NCBI GenBank assembly: GCA_045128275.1
Contig: JBGVRH010000059.1
Span: forward strand, 13,226 to 77,225
Reading direction: 5' to 3'
DNA length: 64,000 bases
Origin: Eubacteriales bacterium
GTDB taxonomy: Bacteria > Bacillota > Clostridia > Oscillospirales > CAG-272
A program made the translations under genes and the position numbers. The notes beneath the pieces were generated by a model. It did not search any database. It was not told the origin of the DNA and was given only the letters and a program-made list of their open reading frames with translations. Positions 30,221 through 32,138 of the stretch are shown in pieces (position 1 is the stretch's first letter; each line of letters opens with the position of its first letter).

Positions 30221-30545
30221 TGGCCTACCTGAAAGGATTCTGAACCCCGCCCTCGCTTTGCGAGGGCAGGAAGCACCTCCCAAGCAAAAATATTCTTTTT
30301 TGGCCACTTGATGCTTCCACGAATCTTCTCACCCTCACAAATAGGCCAACAGAAAAGACACCCGCGAGGGGTGTTTTTCTATTGGCCTACCCGAAAGGAT
30401 TCTGAACCGCGCCCTCGCAAAGCGAGGGCAGGAAGCACCTCCCAAGCAAAAATATTCTTTCTTGGTCACTTAGTGCTTCCACGAATCTTCTCGCCCTCAC
30501 AAATAGGCCAACAGAAAAGACACCCACAAGGGGTGTCTTTTCTGT
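30221..30545. repeat. two tandem copies (about 162 bp each) of a unit beginning with the last 24-25 nt of tRNA-Arg
   Basis: Units start at 30221 and 30383. Each starts TGGCCTACC(T/C)GAAAGGATTCTGAACC, matching the tRNA 3' end at 30546-30570, and each ends with a terminator-like hairpin. Confidence 0.8.
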
Positions 30546-30622
30546 TGGCCTACCCGAAAGGATTCGAACCTTCGACCTTCAGAGTCGGAGTCTGACGCGC
30601 TATCCAGCTGTGCCACGGGTAG
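30546..30622 (-). tRNA. tRNA-Arg (anticodon CCG), CCA encoded
   Basis: Manual cloverleaf fold: CTACCCG/CGGGTAG acceptor stem, anticodon stem-loop TCAGA-CTCCGAC-TCTGA, T arm GAAGG-TTCGAAT-CCTTT, 77 nt. Confidence 0.85.
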
Positions 30623-30641
30623 GTGTTTCGTATACCTTGGT

Positions 30642-30670
30642 ATTATACCACAAAGCAGGGAAAAATGCAA
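30642..30670 (-). promoter_or_regulatory. sigma-A promoter of tRNA-Arg
   Basis: Minus strand TTGCAT, 17 nt spacer, TATAAT, about 20 nt upstream of the mature 5' end. Confidence 0.6.
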
Positions 30671-30759
30671 CCCCTTTTTGAAAAAAAGTCGGGCCGCAAG
30701 GTCTCTTTTCGCCCGCCTGTTCCCGACAAAAGATCCCCCTCGGAGGGGGGCTTGACTCC

Positions 30760-30972
30760 TGTGGAAAACTCCCCCTCCTCCTGTGGATTTTTCCACAGCT
30801 GTCCCGAAAAGTTTCCCACAACCTGTGGAAAACTCTGTGGACATCTCATCCAAATTCTTGAAATTTCCGCGTAAAATAAGGCATTTTCGGGGATTCAGTC
30901 GGATAAAGTCGATTTTGGGGGGTGTGGAATAGCATCATACGGATATAAATTCCTGTTGATAACTTTTCCACA
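30760..30972. promoter_or_regulatory. cluster of 8-9 DnaA-box-like 9-mers
   Basis: TGTGGAAAA at 30760 and 30824; TGTGGATTT at 30782 overlapping TTTTCCACA at 30789 (together a perfect palindrome CTGTGGATTTTTCCACAG); TTTCCCACA at 30812; TGTGGACAT at 30836; TGTGGAATA at 30923; TGTTGATAA at 30954; TTTTCCACA at 30964. Confidence 0.6.
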
Positions 30973-31060
30973 GAAAGAAGGGAACGACAGTGAATTTTCC
31001 GGTGTTTTTCTACAGGCTTCCCAAAAACGGGCACGCGGCGGCGGTAGGAGCGGGGCAAAG

Positions 31061-31089
31061 AAAAAAGGGTAGGCGAGCTACCCTTTTTT
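31061..31089. terminator. intrinsic terminator after holA (symmetrical A/T runs)
   Basis: AAAAAAGGGTAGGCGAGCTACCCTTTTTT. Confidence 0.75.
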
Positions 31090-31094
31090 GAAGG

Positions 31095-32138
31095 TCAGAG
31101 CGTGCAGATGAGCCGTTCAATGATCCCGTACCCGTCGGCGGCGGAGCGCTTCAAGGCCTTGTCAGCGGTCTCGGCGGCGGCGACGGCGTTGCGGAGGAGG
31201 GAGGCATCGGTCTTGCGTGCCTGCTTGAGGTAGAGGCCCACCCGGTATTCGTGCATCTTCAGCTCGCTCCCGATCTCGGCGGGGGTGCGGCCACCGTCGG
31301 CCATGGTGCGGATGGCCAGGAGATCGCAGACCACCCGGGAGACCTCGGACAGGATGAACAGGGGCTCCACGCGGCGGAGCTTGAGGTCGGCCAGGATATC
31401 CAGCGCGTCGGCCCGTCTCCGCTCCATGATGGCGTTGGTAAAGGCGAAGGCATCGTACTCCATGGCGGGGATGGCGGCGGTACGGATATCGGCCTCGGTG
31501 AGAGTGTCCCGCCCGTGGGCGCGGATATAGCAGGCCACCTTGTCCACCTCATTGGCCAGGGTGAACATATTCCGCCCGCAATACTCAATGGTGAACTGGC
31601 AGAGCTTGGGATCGGCCTGTACCCCGCCGTGGAGGTAGTGCTTCTGCACCCAGCCCGCCAGCTTGGCGGGGGTGTTGCGCTCGAAGTATACGGGAGTGAG
31701 GTACTCACCGAGGGTGGTCAGTAGCTCCGAGGGCTTTTTGGGGAGATTACCGGGGTCAAAGGTGTCGGCGGCGGCGGAAATGATCACCAGATTGTAGGGG
31801 TAATCGGGGATCTCGGAGAGTGCCTCGCAGAGCTTGTCCATATCGGCGGCGCGAAGGGTGGACAGGTTCAGTCCCGTCACGGTAATGACCTTGCGATCCG
31901 CCCCCATGGGGGGGACGGTCATGGCATCCAGCAGGGCGGCGGGGGTGAAGTCCAGCCCGTCCAGACGGATATCGTTGAAGGCGGCCATGGCGGGGTCAGC
32001 CTCGGTGACCGACTGGCGAGCCATGCGGAGGGCGGCGGACTTCATGTAGTCCTCCTCCCCGAAGAAGAGGTAGCCTCCCGTGGGGTTGGTTTTCAGAGCC
32101 TTGCGGAAGTCGGCCTCCTTGAGAATGGTCAGGGCCAT
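31095..32138 (-). CDS. holA: DNA polymerase III delta subunit
   Basis: 347 aa, MALTILKEADFRKALKTNPTGGYLFFGEEDYMK... is a typical HolA N-terminus. Confidence 0.8.
   Translation of the reverse strand: MALTILKEADFRKALKTNPTGGYLFFGEEDYMKSAALRMARQSVTEADPAMAAFNDIRLDGLDFTPAALLDAMTVPPMGADRKVITVTGLNLSTLRAADMDKLCEALSEIPDYPYNLVIISAAADTFDPGNLPKKPSELLTTLGEYLTPVYFERNTPAKLAGWVQKHYLHGGVQADPKLCQFTIEYCGRNMFTLANEVDKVACYIRAHGRDTLTEADIRTAAIPAMEYDAFAFTNAIMERRRADALDILADLKLRRVEPLFILSEVSRVVCDLLAIRTMADGGRTPAEIGSELKMHEYRVGLYLKQARKTDASLLRNAVAAAETADKALKRSAADGYGIIERLICTL

What the first reader, a model, noticed from the sequence alone, without database searches (positions are those of the whole stretch)
30757..30975. A dense cluster of DnaA-box-like sites lies between holA and tRNA-Arg, far from any dnaA gene in the window
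Within about 215 bp of non-coding DNA I count seven copies of the core hexamer TGTGGA/TCCACA, plus TTTCCCACA and TGTTGATAA. Each falls in a 9-mer with 1-2 mismatches to the DnaA box TTATCCACA, and TTTTCCACA occurs four times counting both strands. Two boxes form the perfect palindrome CTGTGGATTTTTCCACAG (30781-30798), and CCTGTGGAAAACTC occurs twice. By chance the core hexamer should appear about 0.1 times in such a stretch. Genes on both sides are on the minus strand, so this does not look like the point where leading strands diverge. A secondary DnaA-binding cluster (like the B. subtilis DBCs or E. coli datA), DnaA-dependent control of neighbouring genes, or an origin relic therefore seems more likely than the primary oriC. 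An unconventional oriC cannot be excluded from this window alone.
Basis: partly seen in the sequence, partly recalled or inferred. Interest (0 to 1): 0.6.

Follow-up and report, generated by a model that had tools for sequence, protein, structure and literature searches.

The report
Conserved non-origin DnaA-box cluster after holA
A real cluster of binding sites for the replication initiator DnaA lies just past the holA gene of an uncultured gut Clostridia bacterium. It is not the replication origin; it is a conserved extra DnaA docking site of the kind known from Bacillus subtilis and E. coli, so it is a new example of a known kind.

Summary
Window 30757-30975 holds 7 TGTGGA/TCCACA cores, 5 boxes within 1 mismatch of TTATCCACA and 11 within 2. 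Only three loci in the 3.0-Mb genome look like this. The other two are the dnaA-dnaN spacer on another contig and a gyrB-mreC gap 5.7 kb from it. The dnaA-dnaN spacer is the true oriC: it has DnaA-trios, and a parS array lies nearby. The holA cluster has no DnaA-trios, no AT-rich unwinding element and no dnaA/dnaN.

The cluster is conserved downstream of holA across most of the genus and in several sister genera. It is not found in 27 holA loci from other families of the order. Boxes are conserved and spacers drift. The invariant core is a box trio, ->3bp<-3bp<-, that occurs in this genome only in the three clusters. The downstream neighbour varies (tRNA-Arg, or convergent recD2, mgsA or XRE genes). 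In two species the module survives 3-9 kb away from holA. It therefore behaves as an autonomous DnaA docking site.

The most likely role is that of a B. subtilis-type DnaA-box cluster (DBC) that sequesters or modulates DnaA; this is inferred, not shown. It probably descends from an operator upstream of an HPr-like-trmE operon. A DARS-like role cannot be excluded. The scan found the same kind of holA-adjacent cluster before, in a related genome. Verdict: new member of a known kind, moderate interest.

The parts
30757..30975 (.). DnaA-box cluster as a whole (9 boxes with <=2 mismatches listed below; 5 with <=1)
30760..30768 (-). DnaA box TTTTCCACA. Present in the nearest relatives and several others
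30781..30798 (.). Inverted repeat CTGTGGA-TTTT-TCCACAG, made of two overlapping boxes: AAATCCACA (-) and TTTTCCACA (+). The (+) box is conserved; the (-) box is found only in the nearest relatives
30812..30844 (.). Invariant core trio: TTTCCCACA(+) - 3 bp - TGTGGAAAA (a - strand box) - 3 bp - TGTGGACAT (a - strand box). The pattern C[CT]ACA-N3-TGTGG-N7-TGTGG occurs only 5 times in the genome, all inside the three clusters
30866..30922 (.). Spacer of about 57 bp conserved only in the close group (holA >=76% identity): CCGCGTAAAATAAGGCATTTTCGGGGATTCAGTCGGATAAAGTCGATTTTGGGGGG. Its role is unknown. I found no ORF, no RNA structure and no convincing promoter in it
30923..30931 (-). DnaA box TATTCCACA (TGTGGAWWA in relatives), conserved across the genus
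30954..30972 (.). Box pair TGTTGATAA-C-TTTTCCACA. The right-hand box, 30964-30972(+), is conserved; the left-hand one is specific to this genome
31095..32138 (-). holA (DNA polymerase III delta subunit). Its 3' end is the conserved anchor of the cluster
31064..31090 (.). Hairpin flanked by A and T runs (AAAAAAGGGTAGGCGAGCTACCCTTTTTT): a likely two-way terminator that closes holA
   Evidence: read from sequence; aligned
30735..30749 (-). Terminator-like hairpin CCCCCTCCGAGGGGG followed by ATCTTTTG, between the cluster and the tRNA promoter. Not conserved in relatives
30638..30689 (-). The tRNA-Arg gene's own promoter block: ACTTTTTTTCAAAAAGG, then TTGCAT, a 17-nt spacer and TGGTATAAT (-35 at 30670-30665, -10 at 30647-30642). 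A similar block precedes tRNA-Ser on contig C110
30546..30622 (-). tRNA-Arg(CCG), the downstream neighbour. It is the neighbour only in this genome and in the relatives nearest by holA identity (loci L056/L084 and L059/L087)

Best explanation
Window 30757-30975 is a non-origin DnaA-box cluster (DBC): an autonomous, vertically inherited platform on which the initiator DnaA assembles away from oriC. Shown: the boxes are the same TTTTCCACA(G)-type sites that fill this genome's dnaA-dnaN origin; they are under box-specific purifying selection; and the module persists whatever gene lies downstream, even when it is separated from holA. Inferred: several DnaA molecules bind cooperatively to the tightly spaced trio (3-bp gaps) and to the flanking boxes. 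The locus would thereby hold back or modulate free DnaA and damp replication initiation, as B. subtilis DBCs do collectively. Its likely origin is an operator of 2-3 boxes in front of an HPr-like-trmE operon that followed holA in the family's ancestor. In this subclade the HPr-like gene is gone and the array has 4-7 boxes.
For: (1) Only three loci in the genome carry such arrays. TGTGGAAAA occurs 44 times in the genome, and 17 of those lie in the three loci. (2) The true origin is elsewhere. On C42, dnaA(-) and dnaN(-) flank 11 boxes, followed by TTTTCCACA-TTTTCCATG-GG-TACTACGGATACTACTTC. This is DnaA-trio-like; compare the C. difficile trio in PMC7561715. Five parS sites lie about 7 kb away. 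(3) Conservation: 17 of 27 congeneric genomes have >=3 boxes within 900 bp after holA. In 68 public loci there are about 110 boxes in the 1 kb downstream against 6 in the 1 kb upstream. Five of 29 other genera of the family have the cluster, and none of 27 loci from other families does. (4) Box columns are 71-89% identical to the window in the close group. Spacers are 46-76% and holA third codon positions 55-74%. The trio is kept in 12 relatives in one orientation. (5) The downstream context varies: tRNA-Arg, convergent recD2 (whose stop lies 53 bp past the last box), convergent mgsA, or convergent XRE genes. In G018 the module lies 3.06 kb from holA, and in G002 it lies 8.8 kb away on the other side. 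(6) Precedent: B. subtilis has 6 DBCs outside oriC with 4-12 sites each, one of them between two 3' ends (gcp-ydiF) and one upstream of trmE. Deleting all six causes early initiation (PMC3245932; PMC4447404; PMC2533591).
Against: About a third of congeners lack the cluster next to holA, so it is dispensable or relocatable. In B. subtilis no single DBC deletion had a clear effect. In a single-contig congener (G022) the cluster lies about 318 kb (about 18% of the chromosome) from dnaA, whereas DBC complementation in B. subtilis worked best close to oriC. DnaA here differs at two base-contact positions (T->S and H->S), so its affinities are unknown.
Confidence: 0.6

Rival explanations
1. DnaA acts here as a transcription factor. 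The boxes would be an operator that tunes a neighbouring transcription unit: tRNA-Arg in this genome, the HPr-like-trmE operon in relatives, or holA through 3'-end or antisense effects.
For: In distant genera 2-3 boxes lie 2-130 nt after holA and 200-300 nt before an HPr-like ORF followed by trmE. In B. subtilis DnaA binds upstream of trmE and appears to repress trmE-noc (PMC4447404). In locus L097 good promoters (TTGCCA-17-TATAAT) follow the boxes; I read this from the sequence. The tRNA-Arg promoter lies about 90 bp from the last box. DnaA control of a clamp-loader operon (dnaX) is reported in Borrelia (PMC9879097; title and abstract only).
Against: In this subclade the HPr-like gene is absent, and trmE sits in rnpA-yidC-jag-trmE with no boxes upstream. 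The downstream neighbours differ, and in at least four lineages they are convergent, so there is no promoter to control. The module survives apart from holA. A hairpin and the tRNA's own UP-like promoter block, which is also used by tRNA-Ser, separate the boxes from the tRNA. No conserved promoter was found inside the module.
Confidence: 0.2
2. The cluster is a DARS-like site. Its oppositely oriented box trio would assemble ADP-DnaA head-to-head and promote nucleotide exchange, regenerating active ATP-DnaA and so stimulating initiation instead of damping it.
For: The most conserved element is a trio in which box 1 is opposite to boxes 2 and 3. That is the defining topology of the DARS core (PMC5742627). 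The E. coli DARS1 core, read directly, is TTATCCACT-5bp-TGTGGATAA-3bp-TGTGTATTA, against TTTCCCACA-3bp-TGTGGAAAA-3bp-TGTGGACAT here. A conserved flanking 'regulatory' spacer exists in the close group.
Against: The gap between boxes I and II is 3 bp, not 5. The same trio also occurs inside this genome's oriC and in the gyrB cluster, so it may simply be this lineage's usual DnaA assembly unit. No DARS has been described in Firmicutes or Clostridia as far as I know, and DARS2 needs IHF and Fis.
Confidence: 0.1
3. The cluster is a replication origin: a primary origin, a second origin, or the displaced half (oriC1) of a bipartite origin.
For: Its box density equals that of an origin. The region upstream of dnaA in this genome has only one box, so the oriC1 half that is typical of clostridia (PMC7561715) appears to be missing next to dnaA.
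Against: There is no dnaA or dnaN nearby. There is no DnaA-trio and no GC cluster next to any box, and at most 68% AT in any 40-bp window. Genes on both sides run the same way. In G022 the cluster is about 318 kb from dnaA, too far for origin looping. The gyrB cluster, 5.7 kb from oriC, is a better candidate for an oriC1-like partner.
Confidence: 0.03
4. The cluster is a neutral remnant or chance clustering with no present function.
For: It is absent next to holA in about a third of congeners. The original downstream gene has been lost.
Against: Boxes are conserved above the level of synonymous sites while spacers decay. The geometry is fixed in 12 species. The module is retained after relocation. 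It has more boxes here (4-7) than in the ancestral-type context (2-3).
Confidence: 0.05

Closest known systems
[quoted passage not shown]
   Same: It has several TTATNCACA-type boxes (<=1 mismatch) in a short intergenic stretch outside oriC. It is conserved among relatives. It can lie between 3' ends, as gcp-ydiF does. Its ancestral context is upstream of trmE, as for the thdF-jag DBC. There are only a few such loci per genome.
   Different: This genome has only two such loci, not six. This one is probably not close to oriC (about 318 kb away in a single-contig congener). It is anchored to holA, which is not a DBC neighbour in Bacillus. Its conserved core is an oppositely oriented trio with 3-bp gaps. 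Binding and function are untested.
E. coli DARS1/DARS2 (DnaA-reactivating sequences); PMC5742627
   Same: The core has three closely spaced boxes, with box I opposite to boxes II and III. The II-III gap of 3 bp is identical to that of DARS1. A conserved flanking segment is present.
   Different: The I-II gap is 3 bp against 5 bp. No IHF or Fis sites are known or tested here. The same trio is also present inside this genome's oriC. The phylum is different, and no nucleotide-exchange activity has been tested.
E. coli datA
   Same: It is a non-coding cluster of about 5 good DnaA boxes downstream of genes, and it is a candidate negative regulator of initiation.
   Different: datA function depends on an IHF site between boxes 2 and 3 and on DnaA-ATP hydrolysis. 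Nothing equivalent was identified here.
Firmicute oriC (dnaA-dnaN oriC2 with its box pair, DnaA-trios and DUE); PMC7561715
   Same: It has the same box sequence and the same ->3bp<-3bp<- trio as this genome's own oriC.
   Different: It lacks DnaA-trios, an AT-rich DUE and dnaA/dnaN adjacency.

Membership tests
Chromosomal replication origin (Firmicute type) | Cluster of DnaA boxes | tested here: met
   5 boxes with <=1 mismatch and 11 with <=2 in 219 bp
Chromosomal replication origin (Firmicute type) | Adjacent to dnaA/dnaN | tested here: not met
   dnaA is at C42:43073-44563 and dnaN at C42:41175-42359, on another contig. In G022 dnaA is about 318 kb from holA
Chromosomal replication origin (Firmicute type) | DnaA-trio repeats after a box pair and a GC cluster | tested here: not met
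   I inspected the 3' side of every box by eye in the sequence and found none. The trio-like run TACTACGGATACTACTTC is present at the dnaA-dnaN spacer
Chromosomal replication origin (Firmicute type) | AT-rich DNA-unwinding element | tested here: not met
   The cluster is 57% AT overall, and no 40-bp window exceeds 68% AT. No stress-induced destabilisation (SIDD) calculation was run
B. subtilis-type non-origin DnaA-box cluster (DBC) | Multiple TTATNCACA boxes (<=1 mismatch) in a short stretch outside oriC | tested here: met
   the criterion is taken from PMC2533591
B. subtilis-type non-origin DnaA-box cluster (DBC) | Stable DnaA occupancy in vivo or high affinity in vitro | not testable with these tools
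B. subtilis-type non-origin DnaA-box cluster (DBC) | Conserved among related genomes | tested here: met
   negative control at order level
B. subtilis-type non-origin DnaA-box cluster (DBC) | Close to oriC (true of 5 of the 6 in B. subtilis) | tested here: inconclusive
   The distance is unknown in this fragmented assembly. It is about 318 kb of 1.8 Mb in the single-contig congener G022
B. subtilis-type non-origin DnaA-box cluster (DBC) | Deletion advances initiation | not testable with these tools
   Requires genetics in a cultured relative
E. coli DARS | Core of three boxes, box I opposite to boxes II and III | tested here: met
   30812-30844 has the arrangement + - -; the definition is in PMC5742627
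E. coli DARS | Same inter-box spacing as DARS1/DARS2 | tested here: not met
   DARS1 has gaps of 5 bp and 3 bp; this cluster has 3 bp and 3 bp
E. coli DARS | ADP-DnaA preference and ADP release | not testable with these tools
   Requires a biochemical assay
E. coli datA | Essential IHF-binding site between boxes; promotes DnaA-ATP hydrolysis | not tested
   I did not search for an IHF site or an IHF gene. The conserved spacer 30866-30922 has no known assignment

The most novel reading that the evidence does not exclude
The conserved ->3bp<-3bp<- box trio plus its conserved spacer is a DARS-like DnaA-recharging element in a Clostridia lineage. It would have been exapted from a transcriptional operator after loss of the gene it once controlled. 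That would be the first DARS-type site outside Proteobacteria.
Probability: 0.1. Interest if true: 0.65.

Novelty: new member of a known kind. Interest (0 to 1): 0.35.

Why it matters
Control of the initiator DnaA by chromosomal sites outside the origin is worked out only in E. coli (datA, DARS1/2) and partly in B. subtilis (six DBCs). Here an uncultured gut Clostridia lineage appears to run on just two such sites. One of them has a clean evolutionary record: an operator-like pair of boxes before an HPr-like-trmE operon becomes a larger orphan array that is retained, with fixed geometry, after its gene is lost. That gives a compact, synthesisable 220-bp test fragment, together with its cognate DnaA, for asking whether such clusters act as sinks, recharging sites or operators. 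It does not change current concepts.

Tried and rejected
(1) Origin: rejected (see the membership test).
(2) Small ORF in the gap: the 33-aa GTG ORF at 30989-31090(+) and the 70-aa ORF at 30846-31058(-) are not conserved. The 70-aa ORF has no Pfam hit, and the spacer carries stop codons on both strands.
(3) Small RNA: Rfam at E<=1 finds only the tRNA. RNAalifold on the conserved spacer gives -4.4 kcal/mol with a covariation term of zero. The hairpin at 30735-30749 is not conserved.
(4) Internal promoter: the only sigma-70-like hit (TTATCA-17-TATGAT, 30962-30934, - strand) lies in a segment that varies among relatives.
(5) GC skew: within the window it follows gene orientation (the coding strand is C-rich), and there is no minimum at 30.8 kb. 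The assembly has 112 contigs, so no genome-wide skew could be made.
(7) Motifs other than boxes shared by the three clusters: none.
(8) Positional orthology with the B. subtilis jag-trmE DBC: only partly tenable. In this genome trmE follows jag and has no boxes upstream.
(9) Mobile-element origin: unlikely, because the module is inherited with holA across genera. The tRNA-end repeats lie on the other side of the tRNA.
(10) Spo0A site in the spacer (AGTCGGG-TAA-AGTCGAA against TGNCGAA x2): spo0A is present, but the match is weak and I did not test it further.

Full report
**1. What is in the sequence**

holA lies at 31095-32138 on the minus strand (Pfam DNA_pol3_delta_C). The tRNA lies at 30546-30622 on the minus strand.

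- TTTTCCACA occurs four times, at 30760(-), 30789(+), 30824(-) and 30964(+).
- TTATCAACA occurs at 30954(-).
- Four boxes with two mismatches lie at 30782(-), 30812(+), 30836(-) and 30923(-).
- CCTGTGGAAAACTC is present twice.
- The 'palindrome' at 30781-30798 is an inverted repeat with 7-bp arms around TTTT.

On the minus strand the order of features is as follows.

- holA.
- A hairpin with A and T runs on both sides (31064-31090).
- The boxes (30975-30757).
- A terminator-like hairpin (30749-30735).
- A promoter block, ACTTTTTTTCAAAAAGG-TTGCAT-17-TGGTATAAT (30689-30638).
- The tRNA and its terminator.

A similar promoter block precedes tRNA-Ser on contig C110. The tRNA therefore has its own stable-RNA promoter.

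**2. More than chance**

The window is G000:C59:13226-77225, in a 2.998-Mb assembly of 112 contigs with 58.6% GC.

- The core hexamer occurs 0.51 times per kb genome-wide, and boxes with <=1 mismatch occur 0.176 times per kb.
- A sliding 250-bp scan finds just three outliers: C42:~42.7k (7 boxes), C42:~36.8k (5 boxes) and this locus (5 boxes). Every other place in the genome has at most 2.
- TGTGGAAAA occurs 44 times in the genome, and 17 of those lie in these three loci, which together span about 1.7 kb.

**3. Where the origin is**

dnaA (C42:43073-44563, minus strand) and dnaN (C42:41175-42359, minus strand) flank a 713-bp spacer with 11 boxes of <=1 mismatch. They are followed by recF, a small ORF and gyrB.

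At the dnaN end of the spacer the sequence reads TTTTCCACA-TTTTCCATG-GG-TAC TAC GGA TAC TAC TTC TGG TAT, followed by an AT-richer stretch. This has the layout of a box pair, a GC cluster and DnaA-trios. It is close to the trio reported for C. difficile oriC2, CACCTACTACTATTACTACTATGA (PMC7561715). Five parS sites sit at C42:51604-51752, and none occurs elsewhere in the genome.

The holA cluster has none of these features. No trio-like run follows any of its boxes, and AT content never exceeds 68% in a 40-bp window. I conclude that oriC is the dnaA-dnaN spacer and that this locus is not an origin.

In G022, a single-contig genome of the same genus, dnaA is at 903 kb and holA with its boxes is at 1,220-1,222 kb. 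That is about 318 kb apart, roughly 18% of the chromosome, and holA is co-oriented with the fork.

**4. Conservation**

The relatives are all uncultured Clostridia or Oscillospiraceae-labelled MAGs from ruminant and other herbivore guts.

- Within the genus, 17 of 27 genomes have >=3 boxes in the 900 bp after holA, and almost none before it.
- In 68 public holA loci I count about 110 boxes in the first kb downstream and 6 in the first kb upstream.
- In a one-genome-per-genus sample of the family, 5 of 29 other genera have 3-5 boxes within 20-420 bp of the holA stop.
- In 27 holA loci from other families of the order none has a cluster. This also serves as a negative control.

Alignments show a fixed module: TTTTCCACA ... 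TTnnCCACA-N3-CTGTGGAAAA-CTC-TGTGGACA ... ~80 bp ... TGTGGAWWA ... TTTTCCACA. Against the window, box columns are 71-89% identical in the close group. Spacer columns are 46-76% identical and holA third codon positions 55-74%.

The pattern C[CT]ACA-N3-TGTGG-N7-TGTGG occurs five times in the whole genome. All five lie in the three clusters: two in the gyrB gap, two overlapping in oriC and one here. Twelve relatives keep it after holA, always in the same orientation.

**5. Context and history**

In the more distant genera (holA 46-52% identical) the order is holA, then 2-3 boxes (2-130 nt after the stop), then a small HPr-like ORF (Pfam PTS-HPr, borderline score), then trmE, then a further conserved ORF.

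Deep branches of the genus keep holA, the boxes and the HPr-like gene. In the subclade of this genome (holA >=74% identical) the HPr-like gene is not found. trmE sits in rnpA-yidD-yidC-jag-trmE with no boxes upstream. The array there has 4-7 boxes.

In this subclade the gene downstream of the module varies:

- tRNA-Arg in this genome and in its nearest relatives by holA identity;
- a convergent recD2 whose stop lies 53 bp past the last box (L089);
- a convergent mgsA (L088, L090);
- convergent XRE-type regulator genes (L093, L094).

In G018 a gene is inserted between holA and the module, which lies 3.06 kb away. In G002 the module lies 8.8 kb away on the other side of holA. In both cases the trio is intact and 4-5 boxes remain. 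The module is therefore kept for its own sake, not for a particular neighbour.

**6. Mechanism**

What is shown:

- the sites are of the same kind as those in the origin;
- they are selected as sites;
- they form a self-contained module.

What is inferred: DnaA binds them cooperatively, and the locus acts on DnaA availability. The DnaA here has a standard domain IV apart from two changes, described in section 8.

The best-supported model is the B. subtilis DBC. Eight high-affinity regions with 4-12 sites are known there, including one between two 3' ends (gcp-ydiF) and one upstream of trmE (PMC4447404). The cluster downstream of gcp is conserved, but its role is not clear (PMC2533591). Deleting all six non-origin DBCs raises ori/ter 1.37-fold, and this is rescued by re-inserting one DBC (PMC3245932). 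I put this reading at about 0.6.

A purely transcriptional role (0.2) fits the ancestral context but not the present one.

A DARS-like role (0.1) is raised by geometry. I read E. coli DARS1 from MG1655, and it is TTATCCACT-5bp-TGTGGATAA-3bp-TGTGTATTA. That is the same opposed-trio topology that defines the DARS core (PMC5742627). However, the first gap differs, and the same trio is also part of this genome's oriC.

**7. Known or new**

Non-origin DnaA-box clusters are an established class, so this is a new member in an unstudied lineage. My paper searches found no report of a holA-linked cluster.

The scan itself has already described a holA-adjacent DnaA-box block in a related gut/rumen Clostridia genome (earlier finding e1-4614950). 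My results agree with it and were obtained independently on this genome.

**8. Limits**

There are no experimental data. The assembly is fragmented. The counts of relatives are not independent samples.

The DnaA of this organism aligns well with B. subtilis DnaA (8BTG, E = 7e-106). It reads RDHSTVISS where B. subtilis has RDHTTVIHA. By my own mapping of the list in PMC2533591, these are two of the six base-contacting positions. This may relate to the preference for TTTTCCACA over TTATCCACA.

Noticed in passing
window 30221-30570: A tandem repeat of 162 bp, 2.2 copies, 92% identical. Each unit starts with the last ~25 nt of tRNA-Arg (TGGCCTACCCGAAAGGATTC.GAACC) and continues through the tRNA's terminator. 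Duplicated tRNA 3' ends like these often mark integration or excision scars, or a local tandem duplication.
   Followed up: partly
G000 contig C42:36823-37286 (L005 2824-3286), outside the window: A second non-origin DnaA-box cluster (7 boxes with <=1 mismatch, in two sub-groups) fills the 680-bp gap between the gyrB stop and the mreC start, 5.7 kb from oriC. Equivalent box hits lie about 6-9 kb from dnaA in G001, G023 and G022, so it is conserved in the genus. It could be the functional partner (oriC1-like) of the dnaA-dnaN origin.
   Followed up: partly
G000 contig C42:44564-45079 (L005 10565-11080): The region upstream of dnaA has only one box and is followed by a pyruvate:ferredoxin oxidoreductase gene. 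rnpA-yidD-yidC-jag-trmE lie on another contig (C37). The usual clostridial bipartite layout (rpmH-oriC1-dnaA-oriC2-dnaN) appears to be broken here.
   Followed up: partly
G000 contig C42:51604-51752: Five parS sites (TGTTNCACGTGAAACA with 0-2 mismatches) spaced 31-36 bp apart in about 150 bp, about 7 kb from dnaA. They are the only parS matches in the genome.
   Followed up: no
G000 contig C42:43073-44563 (DnaA protein, residues ~459-470): DnaA domain IV reads RDHSTVISS where B. subtilis has RDHTTVIHA. A Thr and a His that contact bases in the E. coli complex are both Ser here. This may fit the dominance of TTTTCCACA(G) over TTATCCACA in all three clusters.
   Followed up: no
window 30638-30689 (minus strand); also G000 C110:23456-23507 and C71:19239-19288: A promoter block of about 50 bp recurs: ACTTTTTTTSAAAAAG, then TTGCNT, a 17-nt spacer and TGGTATAAT. 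It precedes tRNA-Arg here and tRNA-Ser on C110. It has dozens of matches in congeners and looks like a lineage-wide stable-RNA promoter with an UP-like element.
   Followed up: partly
window 30897-30913: The conserved spacer contains AGTCGGA-TAA-AGTCGAT (AGTCGGG-TAA-AGTCGAA in relatives). This is two direct repeats at 10-bp phase that loosely resemble tandem Spo0A boxes (TGNCGAA). spo0A is present in the genome (C90).
   Followed up: no
G022:C1:874221-875215 and 933979-934201: The single-contig congener has two further arrays of same-orientation TTTTCCACA within about 30 kb either side of dnaA, several of them about 54 bp apart, plus a cluster at 414.5 kb. The number of extra DnaA-box clusters therefore differs between species of the genus.
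   Followed up: no
L060/L062 (G103, G012), between holA and the box module: An insertion of about 250 bp carrying a long GC-rich hairpin (GGGGAAGGGGGCGAGAACC...GGTTTCTCGCCCCCTTTCCCC) separates holA from the module in two species. It may be a small mobile repeat.
   Followed up: no
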